A stretch of DNA of 5,623 nucleotides from a virus. Lineage: Duplodnaviria; Heunggongvirae; Uroviricota; Caudoviricetes. The DNA lies in the IMG/VR virus record IMGVR_UViG_2690316175_000007; one strand, 5' to 3'. The notes beneath the pieces are model-generated. The model worked only from the letters and a program-made list of their open reading frames with translations, was not told the origin of the DNA and did no database searches. Position numbers and translations under genes: made by a program. Shown in pieces: positions 1 through 5,623 of the stretch; position 1 is the stretch's first letter, and every line of letters begins with the position of its first letter.

Positions 1-2
1 CC

Positions 3-335
3 ATTCTATTTCAGGAAGGAGTGTCCGTTAAACTCAGGCTACCTCAATTTGCGCTGGGAAGTGGTGCGCAAGTTGCGTCTAGTGGCGATATTTATGGTTC
101 AGTGTGGGAAAACAACTGGTTAAGCACATGGCTGCATAATCATGTCGTTCGGGATATTCGTCTTGGCAGCATTGAATATAAAAACGTATGGCGCGACTAC
201 GGCTTTGGCGATGCGTCAGGTTATGTTTTAACAGCCGCAATTAACAGCAATGCGGATGATATTGTCGACACTGTTGCCAGAAGGCCAATTCAGAAATTGA
301 TTGGGGGAATATGGTACAACGTGGGGAGTGTTTAA
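3..335 (+). CDS. stf: Side tail fibre protein, C-terminal variable domain (5'-partial, expressed orientation of the invertible segment)
   Basis: The frame is open from the window edge (the track's GTG at 21 is not the true start) and stops at TAA 333-335, 1 nt before the tfa start. The C-terminus ([17 protein letters not shown]) is homologous to the end of the - strand cassette ([17 protein letters not shown]). Position immediately upstream of tfa matches stf-tfa operon organisation. Confidence 0.7.
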
Positions 336-336
336 G

Positions 337-864
337 ATGATGCACCTGAAAAATATTAAGGCCGGGAATCCGAAAACACCGGAACAATACCAGCTAACTA
401 AAAAAGCGGGCGTGGTATGGCTCTTTTGCGAAGATGGCAAAAACTGGTATGAGGAACAAAAGAATTTTCAGCCAGACACCATAAAAATTGCTTACGATGA
501 GAACAACATCATCGTTGCTGTCAGTAAAGACGTTTCAACTATTAATCCTGAAGGGCTAAGCATAGTTGAAGTTCCTGATATTACGGCAAATCGTCACGCA
601 GACAATAACGGAAAATGGATGTTTCTGGATGGTAAAGTAGTAAAGAGGGAATATACAGAACAGGAACTGCAACAACAGGCCGAATCACAAAAGGCCGCAT
701 TGCTTTCCGAAGCTGAATCAGTCATCCAGCCGCTGGAACGAGCTGTCAGGCTGAATATGGCAACAGACGAGGAACGCACACGACTGGAAGCATGGGAACG
801 CTACAGTGTTCTGGTCAGCCGTGTGGATACGGCAAATCCTGAATGGCCACAAAAGCCTGAATAA
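337..864 (+). CDS. tfa: Tail fibre assembly protein (Tfa)
   Basis: ATG at 337 (second ATG at 340) preceded by a GGGGAG Shine-Dalgarno. The N-terminus [22 protein letters not shown] and the C-terminus ...[27 protein letters not shown] are typical of the Tfa family (as in Mu U, lambda Tfa). Stop TAA 862-864. Confidence 0.85.
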
Positions 865-870
865 AAATTA

Positions 871-888
871 AGGCCCGATAGCGGGCCT
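871..888. terminator. Bidirectional intrinsic terminator between the convergent tfa genes
   Basis: GC-rich hairpin AGGCCCG-atag-CGGGCCT lying between the + tfa stop (862-864) and the - tfa stop (893-895). It is flanked by an A-run on the left (a U-run for - strand transcripts) and a T-rich stretch on the right. Confidence 0.6.
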
Positions 889-892
889 TCTC

Positions 893-1426
893 TCATTCTG
901 GTTGTTCGGGAAACGTTACTGGCAGGCTGGAGGTGTCTGTGGATTCAACCTTCTGCGCATAGAGCATCCACTCGGTTAATTTTTGTTTATTCTCATCGGA
1001 AATGATGCCCAGCTGTAGCTGAGAGTCCCACAGCTGGGTTTTATCCCTGACGAGCTGCAGCAGGCTCTGCTTTTCATTTTCCGCTTGTTGCCTTTGCTCT
1101 TCCTCGGTATAAGTTCGCTTTATCACCGCACCATCTTTGAACATCCAGTTGCCCGAAATATCAGCCCGGCGATTTGCTGTAATATCAGGCAACTCAACGA
1201 CACTTAAACCTTCTGGATTAATTGCTGATACATCCTTGTCTATAGCAATAATTATTCCCTCAACTGTGTAAGCCAGTTTTATTGTATCCTCCTGAAAGTT
1301 TTTTAATTCCTCATGCCAATTTTTTCCATCTTCGGACCATAACCAGATAACATCAAAATTCTTTGTTAGCTGGTATTGTTCAACGGTTTTTGGATTACCT
1401 GCGACAATGTTTTTTAAATGCTGCAT
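893..1426 (-). CDS. tfa: Tail fibre assembly protein, alternate copy (Tfa') of the invertible segment
   Basis: 177 aa starting [22 protein letters not shown]. The N-terminal two thirds resemble the + strand Tfa and the C-terminal third diverges. It starts 2 nt after the stop of the upstream - strand tail-fibre cassette. Confidence 0.85.
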
Positions 1427-1428
1427 GA

Positions 1429-1578
1429 TTATACCTGCGATACGTTATACCATGTTCCGTTAATTAACTTTTGTATTGGTCTGAATACTGCCGGATCATC
1501 ACCATCGACTTCACCGATAATACCAAGCCCCGTGATTACATGGCCTGATTTTTCATACATCACGCCTTTCTTCATGGT
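1429..1578 (-). pseudogene. Post-amber C-terminal remnant of the stf' cassette
   Basis: The same frame continues after the TAG for 49 codons ([49 protein letters not shown]) and ends at TAA 1429-1431. This tail is conserved with the C-terminus of the + strand stf copy, so the TAG is a recent nonsense change rather than the native stop. Confidence 0.6.
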
Positions 1579-2355
1579 CTAAACAACTCGTGTGCCAAGT
1601 CTGACATCTCTCACATAGCGGGAATCAAAGTTACCGTAATCCGAGGGATTAACACGTCCCGTAATATTTATGGTTTTATTACTTTGAATGCTTCCGGAGA
1701 CAAAGCGCATAACATGGACGTTATTAGCATAAACATCCAGATTACCATCGCCTTTTTGTTTAAAGCCCGTGTCATTATCACCCAATACAATCGAATTACC
1801 GCCAAGAGCACTGGATGTTCCGATACCCAGTGCACCATTCAGTTGACCACCAGATAACGGCAGTGCACCAACATCTCCTGCTGAAGGTTTTCTGGTGGTG
1901 TAAAATTCGGACCAGTCGGCTTCAAAACCATAACCATCACGGGCTGAACGATAAAAAATACCGCCATTTTTATAATTAATCCGAAACTGAGCTGCAGGAC
2001 AACTTCCTTCTCCCATATAAAAATGAATAATTAACGTTGATGCACCACTAATAGTTGCGTTATAGGCTCCGCTACTCCAGTTCCATCCAACTGCTTTATC
2101 ATTCGCAACGGTGCTTCCTGTTTTCCCTAAGGCAAACGCACCAACATGACTTGCTTTTAATGTGATATCGGAGGAACCATCAAAAGCCACATTGCTTATT
2201 TTCCTGGCAGTTTTTAATTTTGCAGCTGTAGAAGCATTGCCGGATAGTTCACCAGAAAGGCCACCGCTGAATGTTTGTCGATTAGTCCAGGTATTCGCTG
2301 TACTGAGTAACGGTATTTTCTCCCCGCTTGTGCCGAGTTCTCGTAAACCGAGGTT
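1579..2355 (-). CDS. stf: Alternate side tail fibre variable cassette (stf'), silent orientation, with no start of its own; interrupted by an in-frame TAG at 1579-1581
   Basis: On the - strand the frame is open from 2355 (just inside the crossover site) down to the TAG at 1579-1581. The translation (...GEKIPLLSTANTWTNRQTFSGGLSGELSGNASTAAKLKTARKISN...VRDVRLGTRVV*) is glycine/serine-rich and tail-fibre-like. The track ORF 1579..2190 is the Met-delimited part of the same frame. Confidence 0.7.
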   Translation of the reverse strand, partial: NLGLRELGTSGEKIPLLSTANTWTNRQTFSGGLSGELSGNASTAAKLKTARKISNVAFDGSSDITLKASHVGAFALGKTGSTVANDKAVGWNWSSGAYNATISGASTLIIHFYMGEGSCPAAQFRINYKNGGIFYRSARDGYGFEADWSEFYTTRKPSAGDVGALPLSGGQLNGALGIGTSSALGGNSIVLGDNDTGFKQKGDGNLDVYANNVHVMRFVSGSIQSNKTINITGRVNPSDYGNFDSRYVRDVRLGTRVV

Positions 2356-2363
2356 TTAGATAA
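2338..2363. other. 26-bp site-specific recombination (crossover) site of the Gin/Pin/Hin invertase family; right boundary of the invertible segment
   Basis: TTCTCGTAAACC-GA-GGTTTTAGATAA: two imperfect inverted 12-bp half-sites around a 2-bp core. About 23 of 26 positions match the Mu gix site as I recall it. It lies inside the stf' reading frame and 55 bp upstream of pin, as in Mu G, P1 C and e14 P segments. Confidence 0.7.
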
Positions 2364-2417
2364 TGGCGGTTTCTGGCCTGCATGGCATGATTTGTGCTTT
2401 TGGACGGGAGATTCAGC

Positions 2418-2744
2418 GTGCTGATTGGCTATGTAAGGGTATCAACAAATGACCAGAATACAGACCTGCAACGAAACGCTCTTGTTTGTGCAGGATATGA
2501 ACAAATATTTGAAGATAAATTAAGCGGAACAAGGACAGGCCGACCTGGATTAAAACGTGCTTTAAAGCGCCTTCAAAAAGGTGACGCACTGGTTGTCTGA
2601 AAACTGGACTGACTGGGGCACTGTATGCGGCATCTTGTCGTGCTGGTGGTGGAAGCCTAGAAAAAGTATCGGGTGTTGCTGAACCGTGTTGATACATCAA
2701 CTGCACCTGATATTGAGTGGCCTGCAAATCCTGTCAGGGAGTAA
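2418..2744 (+). pseudogene. pin: DNA invertase Pin/Gin-family serine recombinase, inactivated: in-frame TGA at 2598-2600 and 2610-2612, then in-frame fusion to a tfa 3' fragment carrying a TAG at 2658-2660
   Basis: GTG start at 2418 with a GGGAG Shine-Dalgarno. MLIGYVRVSTNDQNTDLQRNALVCAGYEQIFEDKLSGTRTGRPGLKRALKRLQKGDALVV* is the serine-recombinase catalytic N-terminus (active-site Ser in YVRVSTNDQ). The stops fall where Pin, as I recall it, has Trp61 and Arg65. After ...LVVLVVE the frame reads [29 protein letters not shown], which is a Tfa C-terminus. The C-terminal helix-turn-helix domain is absent. Confidence 0.8.
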
Positions 2745-2792
2745 TCATTGGGATTATGCCGCAGCACGTCTTAAGCAAGAACGTGCTGCGGT
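2651..2792 (+). repeat. tfa 3'-end remnant copy A plus downstream hairpin; direct repeat of copy C
   Basis: Positions 2664-2764 are identical to 3944-4044 (101 bp). The flanks differ by a few substitutions (for example TAG here versus TGG in copy C) and a 1-nt indel in the hairpin. Confidence 0.85.
2759..2791 (+). terminator. Hairpin after tfa remnant A (putative intrinsic terminator)
   Basis: 11-bp stem CCGCAGCACGT / ACGTGCTGCGG with an 11-nt loop. A T-run (2802-2807) follows about 10 nt later, which is not ideally placed. It lies between the remnant stop and the convergent methyltransferase stop. Confidence 0.4.
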
Positions 2793-2798
2793 TGGATG

Positions 2799-3467
2799 CT
2801 ATTTTTTCCCTGAAGCGGAAAACATTACTACAGTACCTTGAACCTTGGTTTTAACATTCTCGAAATGCTCTGAGAGTATATGTGTTAAGCCTTCTTCGGA
2901 ATCTTTTGTGTTTGAAAAGATGCCTTTCTGATTGTAAATGCGCATCAGTTTTTGACCGAAGCTATTGTGCACAACTCCATCGCCAAGAATTGTGGCTCCG
3001 TATAGAGTTCCATCGTCAGTTAAGGCCTGCGCCGCATTGCGTATTACACAGCTTTTTGTAGATATATTTCCAGGCAGGCAGTGAAGAAGGTAAAACATGG
3101 AAATGGAATCAAATTGACCATGTAACGCCGCGGGATAAGGTTCAAAAACATCATGGCTAATTTTATGTTTAATTTTTGATTCCCCAGCCCTTGTAGATGC
3201 CGCGTTCAGGCTAGCTTCGTTCAAATCCATTAAAGATATCAGACTACTCTCAGGTACGTGAGTAAGGTAAAACCCAGTTCCAACACCAATATCCAGATGG
3301 TTGTTACCTAAATGTTCCAGAAAGTGTGGAAGAAGGTGTTCCTTTGTAGGACATCCCCATGCAAGCCGATTTGATACTCCCAAAACCCACCAGTCATAAA
3401 GCTTTAGGGTAAGTGGTGTGTAAATTTTAGCCCCATCATCTGTGTTTGTTTTCATTGATTTCACCAT
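2799..3467 (-). CDS. Class I SAM-dependent methyltransferase (small-molecule type, UbiE-like fold); probable phage moron
   Basis: 222-aa ORF; a second ATG at 3455 has a better Shine-Dalgarno (GGTGA). Motif I is HLDIGVGTG, with an acidic post-I residue (LMDLNE), motif II around FDSISMFYLLHCLPG, and motif III LTDDGTLYG. The N-terminal YDWWVLGVSNRLAW resembles the UbiE-type YD...S.....W pattern. There is no DPPY/NPPF or PCQ DNA-methyltransferase motif. It may be a homologue of the e14 ymfD product (similar length, same annotated function), but I cannot confirm this from memory. Confidence 0.8.
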   Translation of the reverse strand: MVKSMKTNTDDGAKIYTPLTLKLYDWWVLGVSNRLAWGCPTKEHLLPHFLEHLGNNHLDIGVGTGFYLTHVPESSLISLMDLNEASLNAASTRAGESKIKHKISHDVFEPYPAALHGQFDSISMFYLLHCLPGNISTKSCVIRNAAQALTDDGTLYGATILGDGVVHNSFGQKLMRIYNQKGIFSNTKDSEEGLTHILSEHFENVKTKVQGTVVMFSASGKK

Positions 3468-3486
3468 GTTATAGTTTTATTTGTGA

Positions 3487-3515
3487 ATTAAATCAATTAT
3501 GGCGATGAATTACAA
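3487..3515 (-). promoter_or_regulatory. Putative sigma70 promoter for the methyltransferase
   Basis: On the - strand: -35 TTGTAA (3510-3515), 17-bp spacer, -10 TTTAAT (3487-3492), about 20-30 nt upstream of the start codon. Confidence 0.3.
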
Positions 3516-3559
3516 GGGGTTAAATGCTGCCGCAGCATAGCGATATTGAAATAGCCTAG

Positions 3560-3791
3560 TATGCTTCGATACAGCAGGAGCCGAATGGCTGGAAGACCGT
3601 CACCACACAGTTCTACATCCAGGAATTTAGTGAGTATATTGCGCCACTGCAGGATGCTGTAGATCTGGAAATCGCAACGGAGGAAGAAAGATCGTTGCTG
3701 GAGGCATGGAATAAATATCGGGTATTGTTGAATCGTGTTGATACATCAACTGCACCTGATATTGAGTGGCCGGAAGAACCAGACACAATGT
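3560..3791 (+). pseudogene. tfa 3' fragment B (C-terminal ~77 codons of a tail fibre assembly gene, no start codon)
   Basis: The frame opens after TAG 3557-3559 and reads ...[68 protein letters not shown]. This aligns with the C-terminus of the intact Tfa (...[46 protein letters not shown]). A 38-bp core is identical to copies A and C. Confidence 0.6.
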
Positions 3792-3865
3792 AAGGCAGTA
3801 TGACTTTCCGTGAGACAGATGCTGGCCAACGTGGGATATTTAACGCGGGTTAACATCGTTGTCAG

Positions 3866-3926
3866 NNNNNNNNNNNNNNNNNNNNNNNNNNNNNNNNNNN
3901 NNNNNNNNNNNNNNNNNNNNNNNNNN
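3866..3926. other. Assembly gap (61 N)
   Basis: Run of N characters. The track ORF 3862..4194 (-) with X residues is an artefact of this gap. Confidence 0.95.
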
Positions 3927-3928
3927 TG

Positions 3929-4024
3929 CTGGAAGCCTGGAAGAAGTATCGGGTGTTGCTGAACCGTGTTGATACATCAACTGCACCTGATATTGAGTGG
4001 CCTGCAAATCCTGTCAGGGAGTAA
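3929..4024 (+). pseudogene. tfa 3' fragment C (starts at the gap); direct repeat of copy A
   Basis: Reads [32 protein letters not shown] with TAA at 4022-4024. Positions 3944-4044 are identical to 2664-2764. Unlike copy A, the Trp codon is intact here (TGG). Confidence 0.6.
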
Positions 4025-4038
4025 TCATTGGGATTATG

Positions 4039-4072
4039 CCGCAGACACGTCGTATGCAGGAACGTGCTGCGG
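4039..4072 (+). terminator. Hairpin after tfa remnant C (putative intrinsic terminator, bulged stem)
   Basis: CCGCAGaCACGT ... ACGTGCTGCGG, followed by the T-rich TTAGTTTGTGAGCTTTCG. Confidence 0.35.
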
Positions 4073-4138
4073 TTAGTTTGTGAGCTTTCGATAGTGGTTG
4101 TTATTTTTGCCCTTATTTGTTCCGGAGGCCATGGTTCA

Positions 4139-4309
4139 ATGGTCCGTCTGCCCCCTGTGGTGATGTCAGCAAAATCAGCCACTGCGCGAACCACAATAGC
4201 CCGGGAAGATGCTGAAGATCACCAGGTAAAGCTGTCAGCGCAGAAACTGGAAGAACTGCTCGCATCAATGGTTAAGGATGAGGTTGATCGCAATGATGGG
4301 ATTTATTGA
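4139..4309 (+). CDS. Hypothetical small protein (56 aa from ATG 4139); possibly the N-terminal part of a longer ORF broken by TGA 4307-4309
   Basis: GGAGG at 4124-4128 lies 10 nt upstream of ATG 4139. The protein is charged and helix-prone (…EDAEDHQVKLSAQKLEELLASMVKDEVDRNDGIY). The same frame stays open for 30 more codons after the TGA, to TAA 4397-4399. The track's 4028 start overlaps the hairpin and is unlikely. Confidence 0.3.
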   Translation: MVRLPPVVMSAKSATARTTIAREDAEDHQVKLSAQKLEELLASMVKDEVDRNDGIY

Positions 4310-4435
4310 CGTCAGCGAGAGCAGAAGGAAGAACTGAATAACCTGAATGATTTACGCTCAATCAGAGCGATGGCGATTAGCGGCAATCACGCTCGATAAA
4401 ATTAACCTCGGTGATCATCCGGGGTTTTGCATTCA

Positions 4436-4993
4436 TTAAAACCGCATCAACCTTTCCACCAATTGTTCTTTACGGGCAACGATCCACCCATGTTGCTCCA
4501 GATAAAATTTAAACCGTTCCAGAGTGCATACCATCGCATCGGCGGGGACTTTTTCTGTGAACTCGACCTGACCGTGTTTATCGAAGTGGATCAGTAATGC
4601 GCATCCATTATTTGGGGCGGGGGAGTTTTGTGCTGCAGGAGGACGTTTGTGGAGTTCTTCTTCCATTGCGTTAAATTTTTCAATGTAAGCTTCTTTTAGT
4701 CTGGCTGCTTTTTTGCCAGTAAATCCCATTACGAGGAACATGAAGCCGTCTTTTGTGATCAGGTAGCATCGTGATTCACGTTCTGCGCCGTTGCCAATTT
4801 CGACAGTCTGAACATCGGCCGAAAAGTTGGCTGATGTAAATTCGGGAGAGCAGTCGAGTGTGTCAATCTTAGCTAAAACGTGTTTATGTTGTTTATCGAA
4901 GTAGTCGGCAACAGCTTGAGAGGTGGTAACCAGGCGACCATCTTTGAAAAAGACTTTTGGTGACTCGTTAGAAAAAGTTATAGCTGTATTCAT
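4436..4993 (-). CDS. rha: Rha-family phage regulatory protein
   Basis: ATG at 4993 with GGAG 9 nt upstream; the track's TTG at 5008 is less likely. The N-terminus MNTAITFSNESPKVFFKDGRLVTTSQAVADYFDKQHKHVLAKIDTL matches the Rha N-terminal domain signature (LVT.S..VA..F.K.H..VL..I). The C-terminal half is unassigned. Confidence 0.75.
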   Translation of the reverse strand: MNTAITFSNESPKVFFKDGRLVTTSQAVADYFDKQHKHVLAKIDTLDCSPEFTSANFSADVQTVEIGNGAERESRCYLITKDGFMFLVMGFTGKKAARLKEAYIEKFNAMEEELHKRPPAAQNSPAPNNGCALLIHFDKHGQVEFTEKVPADAMVCTLERFKFYLEQHGWIVARKEQLVERLMRF

Positions 4994-5020
4994 ATGTGAT
5001 GACTCCAATTAATTGGATGA

Positions 5021-5054
5021 TCACCACCTCTGACGCCAATCAGGGAGGTGGTGA
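5021..5054. promoter_or_regulatory. Perfect 10-bp inverted repeat in the rha leader/promoter region (candidate operator or RNA hairpin)
   Basis: TCACCACCTC-(14 nt)-GAGGTGGTGA, 28-61 nt upstream of the rha ATG. It overlaps a TGATCA palindrome at 5017-5022. Confidence 0.4.
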
Positions 5055-5275
5055 GACGTACAGGGTTGGCGTAACCGGTCATCACAAAACCCGGCGCGGA
5101 TTTCTCCGCCCCTGCACGCCCCACCATAATGCGAATGTGGCAATGCTTAACGCAAAAAAAACCGCAAACGCGGCTATGCGTTGTGATGTTATCCGAGACG
5201 CCAATCCCGACAACCGATTTTGCGGTTGTGTGAGGAATATAGCCCCGGAGAACAAAAACTGTCAACGGGCAAAAA

Positions 5276-5284
5276 NNNNNNNNN
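5276..5284. other. Assembly gap (9 N)
   Basis: Run of N characters. Confidence 0.95.
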
Positions 5285-5463
5285 NAAATTTCCGTTATCA
5301 GGAATGTATAAAATTAAAGCGATCGAGCAAAAAATCCTTTCTGCAAAACTAAAAAAGATTTCAATAAAATCAGGCAGTTAAAAACACGGAAAACGGTATA
5401 AAAAAGCGCCTCAAAATCCTGTTTTTTCTTTCAGATACAATGTCTTATTGCATTTTTTAAAAC

Positions 5464-5579
5464 ATGTCAGTGTGGTACATGGATATCGATACCATCGCCA
5501 ATTATAAACTGGGCGGTGCACAGCAACATGATAGCGTACGCCTCGATCCGTGGGTGTTTATGTTCTCAGCAGGATATCG
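5464..5579 (+). CDS. Hypothetical ORF, 5' part only; reading frame runs into the IS1 end (probably disrupted by the insertion)
   Basis: ATG at 5464 directly follows an in-frame TAA. It reads MSVWYMDIDTIANYKLGGAQQHDSVRLDPWVFMFSAGYR and continues into IS1 sequence. The - strand here is closed by stops. An AT-rich promoter-like region lies upstream. No family was recognised. Confidence 0.25.
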
Positions 5580-5623
5580 GGTAATGACTCCAACTTATTG
5601 ATAGTGTTTTATGTTCAGATAAT
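5580..5623 (-). mobile_element. IS1 insertion sequence, terminal 44 bp (right inverted-repeat end; element continues beyond the window, transposase genes on the - strand)
   Basis: GGTAATGACTCCAACTTATTGATAGTGTTTTATGTTCAGATAAT matches the reverse complement of the IS1 right end (…ATTATCTGAACATAAAACACTATCAATAAGTTGGAGTCATTACC) as I recall it. Confidence 0.9.

What the first reader, a model, noticed from the sequence alone, without database searches (positions are those of the whole stretch)
2651..4074. Three tfa 3'-end remnants; copies A and C are 101-bp identical direct repeats bracketing the methyltransferase and copy B
The last 90-230 bp of a tfa gene occurs three times in the same orientation: copy A (fused to pin, 2651-2744), copy B (3560-3791, diverged, sharing only a 38-bp identical core) and copy C (3929-4024). 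A and C share a perfect 101-bp stretch and similar downstream hairpins. This suggests that tfa 3' ends plus their hairpin act as recombination joints for module exchange, and that the methyltransferase unit was captured between two such joints. The repeats could also mediate precise deletion of the cargo. An N-gap lies between B and C, so the exact spacing is uncertain.
Basis: seen in the sequence. Interest (0 to 1): 0.5.

Follow-up and report, generated by a model that had tools for sequence, protein, structure and literature searches.

The report
Prophage tail-chaperone remnants, one likely scaffolding artefact
The repeats are real in this draft Shigella sonnei scaffold, but finished genomes show two leftover tail-fibre-chaperone gene ends around a phage methyltransferase gene, not three, so the third copy most likely comes from assembling and scaffolding across repeats, and the rest is ordinary prophage mosaicism.

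Summary
The window is the whole 5,623-bp record CXBS01000218.1 of a draft Shigella sonnei assembly. It is the right end of a decayed lambdoid prophage next to trpA, bounded by IS ends and holding two N gaps.

A and C share an exact 101 bp (2664-2764 = 3944-4044). All three copies share a 38-bp core that is identical to phage lambda tfa.

The three-copy layout is probably not genomic.
- Copy B runs straight into the left end of ISSso6, where its contig stops.
- Copy C starts exactly at the N gap.
- Seven finished genomes match both contigs almost perfectly, but B and C map onto the same 76 nt. They have one hybrid remnant and are 231 bp shorter.
- B's tail plus ISSso6, and C's first 38 nt, belong to a second ipaH-methyltransferase-tfa' locus in the same finished genome. 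That locus shares a 1,013-bp repeat with this one.
- The other N gap stands for zero bases.

The general idea survives. At the same trpA site, finished E. coli genomes carry either an empty allele (one full tfa) or a loaded allele. The loaded allele has 1,050 extra bp with the methyltransferase between 216-bp, 90%-identical tfa-end repeats. Flanks switch exactly at the core. This is known tail-fibre mosaicism, so interest is low.

The parts
1..46 (.). End of an IS3-family element (IS600-like) that truncates the tail-fibre gene; left edge of the scaffold
   Evidence: In finished genomes the same sequence directly follows HTH_Tnp_1/rve transposase genes (L024/L026). Window 1-46 differs from the intact stf of L025, which matches only from position 47. 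The name IS600 is from my memory of its terminal repeat, not from a tool.
47..2342 (.). Invertible tail-fibre segment: stf C-terminus (21-335 +), tfa1 (337-864 +), tfa2 (893-1426 -), alternative stf C-terminus (1429-2190 and beyond, -)
   Evidence: ORFs. Pfam gives Caudo_TAP for both tfa genes and gp37_C for the 203-aa ORF. The segment 47-2367 lies in the opposite orientation relative to pin'-A-MT in L009, L010, L017, L020, L029 and L031.
2338..2363 (+). Crossover site of the invertase (pix/gix-like), TTCTCGTAAACCGAGGTTTTAGATAA
   Evidence: L029 carries two such sites in inverted orientation at the borders of the segment. The window's site is a hybrid of their two halves. The inverted and non-inverted alignments overlap by 25 nt, 2343-2367.
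2394..2646 (+). pin (serine invertase) pseudogene: N-terminal ~85 codons with two in-frame stops, truncated
   Evidence: Translation. Pfam Resolvase matches model positions 2-86 of 145 only. Annotated as an incomplete recombinase in EC958.
2647..2744 (+). Copy A: last 31 codons plus stop of a lambda-type tfa, fused in frame to pin'; 38-bp core at 2685-2722
   Evidence: Homology to full-length tfa genes (L004, L005) starts at 2647. The same pin'::tfa' fusion occurs in EC958 and about 410 finished E. coli genomes.
2757..2793 (.). Hairpin between convergent tfa' and the methyltransferase gene (terminator-like, stable on both strands)
   Evidence: -28.6 kcal/mol (z -4.4) on the + strand and -25.4 kcal/mol (z -4.2) on the - strand. 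A homologous hairpin follows lambda tfa.
2799..3467 (-). Class I SAM-dependent methyltransferase, 222 aa (prophage cargo gene, substrate unknown)
   Evidence: Pfam Methyltransf_12/23/25/11. The exact protein is named as from Shigella sonnei. It sits in the same position in viable lambdoid phages such as 2G7b and PhiR26_1.
3560..3793 (+). Copy B: last 77 codons of a second tfa allele (in-frame TAG just upstream at 3557-3559); core at 3734-3771; own end EEPDTM* at 3772-3793
   Evidence: Up to 3771 it is identical to the trp-locus remnant of finished genomes. From 3772 on it matches the paralogous 'locus 2'.
3794..3865 (+). Left end of ISSso6 (IS110 family); the contig stops inside it
   Evidence: Window 3790-3865 is 100% identical to the sequence just upstream of annotated ISSso6 transposase genes at unrelated sites, on chromosomes and plasmids. 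The insertion point is within 1 nt after the tfa' stop, defined against the uninterrupted site in L038.
3866..3926 (.). Scaffold gap (61 N) between two contigs
   Evidence: Finished genomes have no sequence here; they are 231 bp shorter between MT and Rha.
3927..4024 (+). Copy C: first 76 nt (3927-4002) identical to phage lambda tfa and to locus 2; the rest is the true 3' part of the single B/C remnant of finished genomes
   Evidence: All 7 mismatches of this contig against finished genomes fall in 3934-3964. The 76 nt are 100% identical to L045, L010 and L013 and to lambda.
4037..4074 (.). Hairpin downstream of copy C, homologous to the hairpin after A
   Evidence: (family D5, 90% identity).
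4139..4309 (+). Remnant of a DUF4376-type gene (pseudogene)
   Evidence: Annotated as a DUF4376 pseudogene in EC958, EC15 and NMBU-W13E19. The fragment itself gave no Pfam hit.
4436..5265 (-). Rha-family regulator (4436-4993) and Ash-family protein (4990-5265): right end of the prophage
   Evidence: Pfam Phage_pRha and Phage_ASH. Followed by IS1, an ompW fragment and trpA in finished genomes.
5276..5285 (.). Second scaffold gap (10 N) that stands for no missing bases
   Evidence: Finished genomes read GGGCAAAAAAATTTCCG across it, that is 7 A. The window has 5 A + 10 N + 3 A.
5580..5623 (.). IS1 terminal repeat; right edge of the scaffold
   Evidence: IS1 transposase genes (InsA/DDE_Tnp_IS1) follow at this position in finished genomes (L024 15017-15714). 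The end sequence itself I recognised from memory.

Best explanation
The window is the right end of a decayed lambdoid prophage beside trpA in Shigella sonnei. The genome most likely has two tfa 3' remnants here, not three.

1. Copy A is the end of a lambda-type tfa. An illegitimate deletion fused it to a truncated pin invertase gene.
2. The second remnant is one B/C hybrid: B sequence up to the 38-bp core, then C sequence after it.
3. These two imperfect direct repeats (about 90% identical over about 216 bp in relatives with a full tfa) flank a convergent methyltransferase cargo gene.
4. This layout arose by homologous exchange between lambdoid phages within the conserved tfa 3' end (inferred).

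The extra copy in the record comes from short-read assembly.
- The same genome has a second locus (ipaH - methyltransferase - tfa' - ISSso6) sharing a 1,013-bp near-identical repeat with this one. That repeat ends exactly at the core.
- The contig entered the repeat from the trp locus and left it into the other locus's flank (B's own end plus ISSso6), where it stopped.
- The next contig starts 38 nt before the core with lambda-type tfa sequence.
- The scaffolder then joined the two contigs with Ns, so the 76 nt before and including the core appear twice.
For: Shown by tools:
(1) The window is the complete record CXBS01000218.1 of draft assembly GCA_001255195.1 (L057 identical). Its proteins are named as from S. 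sonnei.
(2) Seven finished genomes (L021, L024, L026, L027, L028, L030, L033) match window 1-3771 with 4-5 mismatches and 3927-5623 with 7 mismatches. The two alignments overlap by 76 nt in the finished sequence, so those genomes are 231 bp shorter with a single remnant. EC958 and about 400 finished E. coli genomes have the same two-remnant layout.
(3) All 7 mismatches of the second contig lie in its first 38 nt.
(4) Bases 3790-3865 are the left end of ISSso6, so the first contig ends in a multi-copy element.
(5) Finished genome CP037997.1 contains both the trp locus (L030) and locus 2 (L045). They share a 1,013-bp, 98%-identical repeat equal to window 2759-3771. Locus 2 carries exactly the C-type 38 nt, the EEPDTM end and ISSso6.
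(6) Among about 75 occurrences of the core in 46 loci, each of the window's three up/down flank combinations is a singleton.
(7) The window-type 74-aa remnant protein occurs on only 3 contigs, none longer than 5.6 kb. The trp-type protein occurs on at least 1,000 contigs, including finished chromosomes.
(8) A sister scaffold from the same project (L058) carries the methyltransferase-B region twice around a single N.
(9) The window's other N gap stands for zero bases, so gaps in this scaffold do not measure missing sequence.
(10) A sister draft (L012) assembled B-core-C-down contiguously.

For the biology:
- Empty and loaded alleles exist at the same site.
- The flanking repeats are 216 bp at 90% identity.
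- The methyltransferase sits between a tfa 3' end and a downstream tfa remnant in isolated lambdoid phages; some of these have a full tfa, while 2G7b has only a tfa-end remnant upstream.
- The lambda tfa end is identical over the 76 nt and has a homologous hairpin.
- Lambda is shown experimentally to recombine with defective prophages through stf-tfa homology (PMC3945230).
Against: No reads were available, so the mis-join is inferred from comparison only.

- The junction B-type sequence | core | EEPDTM end | ISSso6 is probably real DNA in some S. sonnei. A 594-bp contig from an unrelated project, seen in 11 samples, is 100% identical to window 3321-3865. This fits a sublineage whose locus 2 carries the B-type allele, but it also leaves room for a real rearrangement.
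- The three C-type bases in copy A (2724, 2726, 2729) occur naturally in finished E. coli genomes (L048, L052, L053). That part of the 101-bp identity may therefore be genuine.
- The origin of the lambda-type 38 nt at the start of the second contig is not pinned down for this strain.
- The finished genomes compared are relatives, not the same isolate.
Confidence: 0.8

Rival explanations
1. Real three-remnant array. In this strain the trp-locus prophage really reads methyltransferase - B (own end) - ISSso6 - further sequence - lambda-type tfa end (C) - Rha. The finished-genome hybrid B/C would then be a later deletion by recombination between the 38-bp cores of B and C.
For: The record as assembled shows this layout. 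The B-type|core|own-end junction with ISSso6 recurs in an independent 594-bp contig seen in 11 samples. B-type sequence with its own end is a natural allele in E. coli (144 contigs; L034). C-type|core|C-down is a natural end of full tfa genes (L036). A core-to-core deletion would give exactly the hybrid seen in finished genomes.
Against: None of the finished loci fetched, Shigella or E. coli, shows this layout. In finished genomes the right flank of ISSso6 at this tfa' is a hairpin, IS1 and dinI, not a tfa end. Copy C starts exactly at the gap. A sister scaffold shows the methyltransferase-B region simply repeated around an N. A scaffolder working with short inserts could hardly link the contigs across a 1.5-kb IS (inference).
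Confidence: 0.09
2. Real reciprocal homologous crossover at the 38-bp core between the two prophage loci, for example an inversion in a lineage where they lie inverted. Both recombinant junctions would be genuine, and only the N-gap join of the two contigs would be false.
For: The window's two junctions (B-type|own end, C-type|C-down) are the reciprocal products of the two parental junctions in finished genomes (B-type|C-down, C-type|own end). S. sonnei genomes are heavily rearranged at repeats (general knowledge).
Against: In CP037997.1 the two loci are direct repeats about 295 kb apart, so a crossover would delete that interval, not invert it. Sister scaffold L058 has B-type sequence on both junctions, which is not reciprocal. 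Only 38 nt support the C-type junction, and they lie at a contig edge.
Confidence: 0.08
3. Recent local tandem duplication of the tfa 3' end by slippage or unequal exchange within this locus.
For: Same orientation and 231-bp spacing of B and C.
Against: B and C differ at 7 of the 38 nt before the core and completely after it. IS sequence and an N gap lie between them. The material is not a copy of neighbouring sequence; it matches another locus.
Confidence: 0.02

Closest known systems
Phage lambda tfa (tail fibre assembly chaperone, Pfam Caudo_TAP PF02413) and tfa remnants in defective lambdoid prophages
   Same: Copies A and C encode the last 31 residues of a Tfa protein and copy B the last 77. 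The 76 nt at 3927-4002 are identical to lambda tfa, and the downstream hairpin is homologous.
   Different: None of the three is a functional gene. A is fused to a pin pseudogene, B lacks a start and follows an in-frame stop, and C is a contig edge. The two intact tfa genes of the window (337-864, 893-1426) belong to a different, Mu/P2-like allele pair.
Mosaic exchange of side-tail-fibre modules among lambdoid phages and defective prophages by relaxed homologous recombination (De Paepe et al. 2014, PMC3945230; Sandmeier 1994 and Haggard-Ljungquist 1992 as cited there)
   Same: Flank switches occur exactly at a short conserved stretch inside tfa. The cargo is present or absent at one site. The repeats are diverged, as expected from two different tfa alleles.
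   Different: No experiment here. The direction of events (insertion by exchange or deletion between repeats) cannot be decided from the sequences.
Cargo ('moron') genes downstream of the tail fibre genes of lambdoid prophages, including type III effector genes such as ipaH in Shigella
   Same: The methyltransferase is a convergent, self-contained gene just past tfa. In locus 2 an ipaH gene sits next to the same methyltransferase. The methyltransferase is also carried by isolated phages.
   Different: The function and substrate of this methyltransferase are unknown. That this region is a cargo hotspot is my background knowledge; my literature search for the term 'exchangeable effector loci' returned nothing usable.
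Invertible tail-fibre segments with a serine invertase (Mu G/Gin, P1 C/Cin, e14 P/Pin)
   Same: Two alternative stf C-termini, each with its own tfa. Inverted 26-bp crossover sites. Both orientations occur among genomes. The invertase gene lies next to the segment.
   Different: The invertase here is a truncated pseudogene, so any current inversion would need an enzyme supplied in trans.
Repeat-induced chimeric contigs and scaffold gaps in short-read assemblies
   Same: One contig ends in an IS. The duplicate starts at the gap edge. The flanks belong to a paralogous locus. Finished genomes lack the duplicate. Another gap in the same scaffold is empty.
   Different: Not verified with reads.

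Membership tests
Tail fibre assembly protein Tfa (Caudo_TAP, PF02413) | Sequence match to the family profile | tested here: met
   B remnant: E 1.6e-25, profile positions 75-130 of 131. tfa1 and tfa2 match full length. The 31-codon C fragment carries a precomputed PF02413 hit. The 76 nt 3927-4002 are identical to lambda tfa; A's corresponding 76 nt differ at 3 positions.
Tail fibre assembly protein Tfa (Caudo_TAP, PF02413) | Complete open reading frame next to a tail fibre gene (functional chaperone) | tested here: not met
   A has 31 codons fused to pin'. B has 77 codons with no start and an upstream TAG. C has 31 codons at a contig edge. They are remnants, not genes.
Repeat-flanked cargo cassette exchanged by homologous recombination | Direct repeats of homologous sequence on both sides of the cargo | tested here: met
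   The repeats are 216 bp at 89.8% identity in the loaded allele L018. In the window they are A (2647-2793) against B and C.
Repeat-flanked cargo cassette exchanged by homologous recombination | Presence/absence polymorphism at the same chromosomal site, with the empty site equal to one repeat copy | tested here: met
   L035 and L036 carry a full tfa followed directly by the DUF4376 remnant, Rha and Ash beside trpA. L018 and L022 carry 1,050 extra bp.
Repeat-flanked cargo cassette exchanged by homologous recombination | Observed recombination events | not testable with these tools
   Only inferred from flank combinations that switch at the 38-bp core. Experimental precedent for lambda with Rac and Qin is in PMC3945230.
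Gin/Pin/Cin-type invertible tail-fibre segment | Serine recombinase gene adjacent to the segment | tested here: inconclusive
   A Resolvase domain is present, but only profile positions 2-86 of 145, with two in-frame stops. It is a pseudogene.
Gin/Pin/Cin-type invertible tail-fibre segment | Inverted crossover sites, and both orientations found in nature | tested here: met
   Two inverted sites in L029, with a hybrid site in the window. The segment is inverted in L009, L010, L017, L020, L029 and L031 relative to the window.
ISSso6 (IS110 family) | Identity to the element's end at independent insertion sites next to its transposase gene | tested here: met
   76-77 nt at 100% identity in 277 E. 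coli genomes. It lies directly upstream of annotated ISSso6 transposase genes in L002 and L003. The full element follows the same tfa' in L040-L045.
Assembly or scaffolding artefact at a repeat | The feature abuts a gap or contig end and is absent from finished genomes of close relatives | tested here: met
   C starts at 3927, the first base after the gap. The first contig ends in an IS. Seven finished genomes with 4-5 mismatches lack the duplicate.
Assembly or scaffolding artefact at a repeat | A source for the misplaced sequence exists elsewhere in the same genome | tested here: met
   CP037997.1 carries both loci, sharing a 1,013-bp repeat.
Assembly or scaffolding artefact at a repeat | Read-level evidence (coverage, spanning reads) | not testable with these tools
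   No reads are available here.

The most novel reading that the evidence does not exclude
In this S. sonnei isolate the 38-bp tfa core has really served as the crossover point of a recent exchange between two prophage remnants about 300 kb apart. Alternatively, ISSso6 really sits between two tfa remnants at the trp locus. Either way the record would capture a live chromosomal rearrangement mediated by a 38-bp phage homology.
Probability: 0.15. Interest if true: 0.3.

Novelty: already known. Interest (0 to 1): 0.12.

Why it matters
It matters mainly as a caution. Short conserved stretches at the ends of phage tail-fibre chaperone genes occur many times per Shigella or E. coli genome. Together with IS elements they break and mis-join short-read assemblies. 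Apparent 'perfect repeats bracketing cargo' next to N gaps should therefore be checked against finished genomes.

The biological residue is ordinary. A methyltransferase cargo gene is flanked by tfa-end repeats, empty and loaded alleles occur at one site, and flanks switch at a 38-bp core. This is a tidy example of the known mosaic evolution of lambdoid tail-fibre regions. The function of the methyltransferase remains unknown, and it is the only open question of any interest here.

Tried and rejected
- An exact scan of species-representative genomes for the tfa-end/ISSso6 stretch found nothing. Shigella is probably not represented separately there, so this was uninformative.
- No E. coli finished genome holds the tfa'::ISSso6 junction.
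- I first took the three C-type bases in copy A (2724, 2726, 2729) for a collapsed-bubble artefact. I withdrew that as a firm claim when the exact 45-aa overlapping ORF turned up in finished E. coli genomes.
- I first took the B-type|own-end junction for a pure chimera at the core. I softened that after finding an identical 594-bp contig in 11 independent samples.
- Pfam found nothing in the DUF4376 remnant or in the 104-aa stf fragment.
- A literature search for 'exchangeable effector loci' and for a described tfa-methyltransferase moron gave no direct hit.
- Local tandem duplication was rejected because B and C differ before and after the core.
- I did not pursue the methyltransferase's function (no structure prediction or profile search), because it is outside the finding.
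Full report
WHAT THE WINDOW IS

The 5,623 bases are the complete record CXBS01000218.1 of draft assembly GCA_001255195.1 (L057 is identical to the window). The sources name its proteins as Shigella sonnei.

The record is a scaffold with two N runs, 3866-3926 and 5276-5285. It starts in the end of an IS3-family element and ends in an IS1 end (the element names are partly from memory). From left to right it contains:
- An invertible tail-fibre segment: stf C-terminus 21-335, tfa1 337-864, tfa2 893-1426 (minus strand), and an alternative stf C-terminus 1429-2190 (minus strand).
- An invertase crossover site at 2338-2363.
- A truncated pin pseudogene, 2394-2646.
- Copy A, then a hairpin.
- A 222-aa class I SAM-dependent methyltransferase on the minus strand, 2799-3467.
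- Copy B, the gap, copy C, and a second hairpin.
- A DUF4376 pseudogene remnant.
- Rha (4436-4993, minus) and Ash (4990-5265, minus).

In finished genomes this is the right end of a lambdoid prophage beside an ompW fragment and trpA.

CHECKING THE OBSERVATION

- A and C share an exact 101 bp, 2664-2764 = 3944-4044.
- B shares a 38-bp exact core with both: 3734-3771 = 2685-2722 = 3965-4002.
- All three copies read as Tfa C-termini in the same orientation.
- B hits the Caudo_TAP profile at positions 75-130 of 131.
- Homologous hairpins follow A and C.

The 76 nt at 3927-4002 (38 nt plus the core) are identical to phage lambda's own tfa, which also has a homologous hairpin after its stop. These are therefore typical lambda-type tfa 3' ends.

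WHY THE THIRD COPY IS PROBABLY NOT IN THE GENOME

First, bases 3790-3865 after B's stop codon are 100% identical to a sequence found in 277 E. coli genomes, often in many copies and on plasmids. That sequence lies directly upstream of annotated ISSso6 (IS110-family) transposase genes. The contig carrying B therefore ends inside a repeated insertion sequence, and copy C begins at the very first base after the gap.

Second, exact-protein look-ups brought in finished chromosomes with the same IS-bounded layout (L021, L024, L026, L027, L028, L030, L033).
- They match window 1-3771 with only 4-5 mismatches and 3927-5623 with 7.
- The two alignments overlap by 76 nt in the finished sequence. The window's 3696-3771 and 3927-4002 are one and the same stretch there.
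- The finished loci are 231 bp shorter between the methyltransferase and Rha.
- EC958 and about 400 other finished E. coli genomes have the same two-remnant layout.
- All seven mismatches of the second contig lie in its first 38 nt.

Third, the misplaced pieces have a source. Finished genome CP037997.1 holds both the trp locus (L030) and a second locus (L045) that reads ipaH - methyltransferase - tfa' - ISSso6 - IS1 - dinI.
- The two loci share a 1,013-bp, 98%-identical repeat that corresponds exactly to window 2759-3771 and ends at the core.
- Locus 2 has precisely the C-type 38 nt before the core, and the EEPDTM end plus ISSso6 after it.

I tabulated the sequence before and after every occurrence of the core in 46 loci. 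The window's three combinations are each unique. The combinations of the finished genomes recur 8 to 26 times.

Fourth, there are internal and sister controls.
- The window's other N gap replaces nothing. Finished genomes read straight through with one A fewer.
- A sister scaffold from the same project (L058) shows the methyltransferase-B region twice around a single N, first exiting into ISSso6 and then into the Rha side.
- Another sister draft (L012) assembled B-core-C-down contiguously.
- The 74-aa protein specific to the window's B junction is on 3 contigs, none longer than 5.6 kb. The trp-type version is on at least 1,000 contigs, including finished chromosomes.

WHAT REMAINS UNCERTAIN

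Without reads the mis-join is an inference.
- A 594-bp contig from an unrelated project, present in 11 samples, is identical to window 3321-3865. B-type sequence followed by the EEPDTM end and ISSso6 therefore probably exists in some S. sonnei. The most economical reading is a locus 2 that carries the B-type allele. The 1-kb repeat would then be perfect, and an assembler would be free to walk from one locus into the other.
- The three C-type bases in copy A (2724, 2726, 2729) differ in all Shigella-type loci examined, but they occur in finished E. coli genomes. That part of the A/C identity may be real. With a B-type remnant, the exact A-to-remnant repeat would then be 80 bp (as in L048) rather than 101.
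- A real B-ISSso6-C array, or a real reciprocal exchange between the two loci, is not excluded. I give these together about 0.15-0.2.

WHAT THE REAL STRUCTURE MEANS

- At the same trpA/ompW prophage site, E. coli EC15 and NMBU-W13E19 have stf - full tfa - DUF4376 remnant - Rha - Ash, with no methyltransferase and no second tfa remnant.
- Other genomes have 1,050 extra bp there: the A-type end and hairpin, the methyltransferase, and a second tfa 3' end. In these the cargo lies between 216-bp direct repeats that are 89.8% identical.
- The empty allele equals what a crossover between the two repeats of the loaded allele would leave. Equally, the loaded allele equals what a homologous exchange with a methyltransferase-carrying phage would create. 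The direction cannot be told from sequence.
- The methyltransferase sits just past a tfa 3' end and before a tfa remnant in isolated lambdoid phages (PhiR26_1, ev243 and others). In 2G7b only a tfa-end remnant, not a full tfa, lies upstream. The module also occurs in a prophage at another attachment site, with B keeping its own end (L034).
- Upstream and downstream flanks of the core occur in many combinations that switch exactly at the core. This is the expected trace of homologous recombination within a short conserved stretch.
- Such exchange between lambda and defective prophages through stf-tfa homology has been shown experimentally (PMC3945230).
- Copy A's left boundary is different in kind. 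Resolvase homology stops at about 2648 and tfa homology begins at 2647, which indicates an illegitimate deletion joining pin to the tfa end. It is old and widespread, since it occurs in EC958 and about 410 finished genomes.

VERDICT

The three-copy array and the A/C bracket are most likely products of assembling and scaffolding across a 1-kb two-copy repeat and an IS. The underlying two-remnant methyltransferase cassette is real but is an ordinary, already annotated example of lambdoid tail-fibre mosaicism. Interest is low.

Noticed in passing
window 47-2367, with crossover site 2338-2363: A Mu G / e14 P-like invertible tail-fibre segment. It has two alternative stf C-termini, each with its own tfa. 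It lies in the opposite orientation in L009, L010, L017, L020, L029 and L031. The window's crossover site is a hybrid of the two sites seen in L029, as expected from site-specific inversion. The adjacent pin gene is a truncated pseudogene, so inversion would need an invertase supplied in trans.
   Followed up: partly
window 5276-5285: The 10-N gap stands for no missing sequence. Finished genomes read GGGCAAAAAAATTTCCG (7 A) where the window has 5 A + 10 N + 3 A. The two contigs actually overlap in a poly-A run.
   Followed up: yes
window 3789-3865; L038 10260-10300 vs L040 10260-11800: ISSso6 (IS110 family, about 1.5 kb) is inserted within 1 nt after the stop codon of the tfa remnant. The uninterrupted site reads ACAATGTAAG^CGAAAAAG. 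Three independent insertion sites share GTAAG on the left. Two of them (L002, L003) also have similar right flanks, ATC(A/G)GCG..AACGG, which suggests target preference. This was not analysed further.
   Followed up: partly
L045, L040-L044 (locus 2); L008, L009: A second copy of the same methyltransferase-tfa' module lies next to an ipaH (LRR plus NEL E3 ligase) effector gene in a prophage remnant near dinI. The methyltransferase therefore travels with different cargo neighbours.
   Followed up: partly
window 3557-3559: An in-frame TAG precedes the B remnant in the window and in most of the Shigella-type finished genomes (L021, L026, L028, L030). L024 and the E. coli relatives have TGG there and an 89-codon ORF. 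This is further decay of an already dead gene fragment.
   Followed up: yes
window 1-46 and 5580-5623: Both ends of the record are ends of insertion sequences (IS3-family/IS600-like and IS1). This explains why the scaffold is only 5.6 kb long.
   Followed up: partly
L025, L029, L031 (position equivalent to window 4035-4044): In some finished Shigella-type genomes an IS1 is inserted right at the hairpin after the B/C remnant. This is another break point at the same spot.
   Followed up: no
window 2717-2854 (+): A 45-codon ORF overlaps the end of tfa' and the end of the methyltransferase gene. It is annotated as a hypothetical protein in RefSeq (WP_001309429.1 is the variant form in EC958) and is probably not a gene. 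It was useful here only as an exact-match probe.
   Followed up: partly
L060 (phage 2G7b) about 3603: In phage 2G7b the second tfa remnant diverges in the middle of the 38-bp core (CGTGTTGATACATCA then unrelated sequence). Joints are therefore not confined to the core's edges.
   Followed up: no
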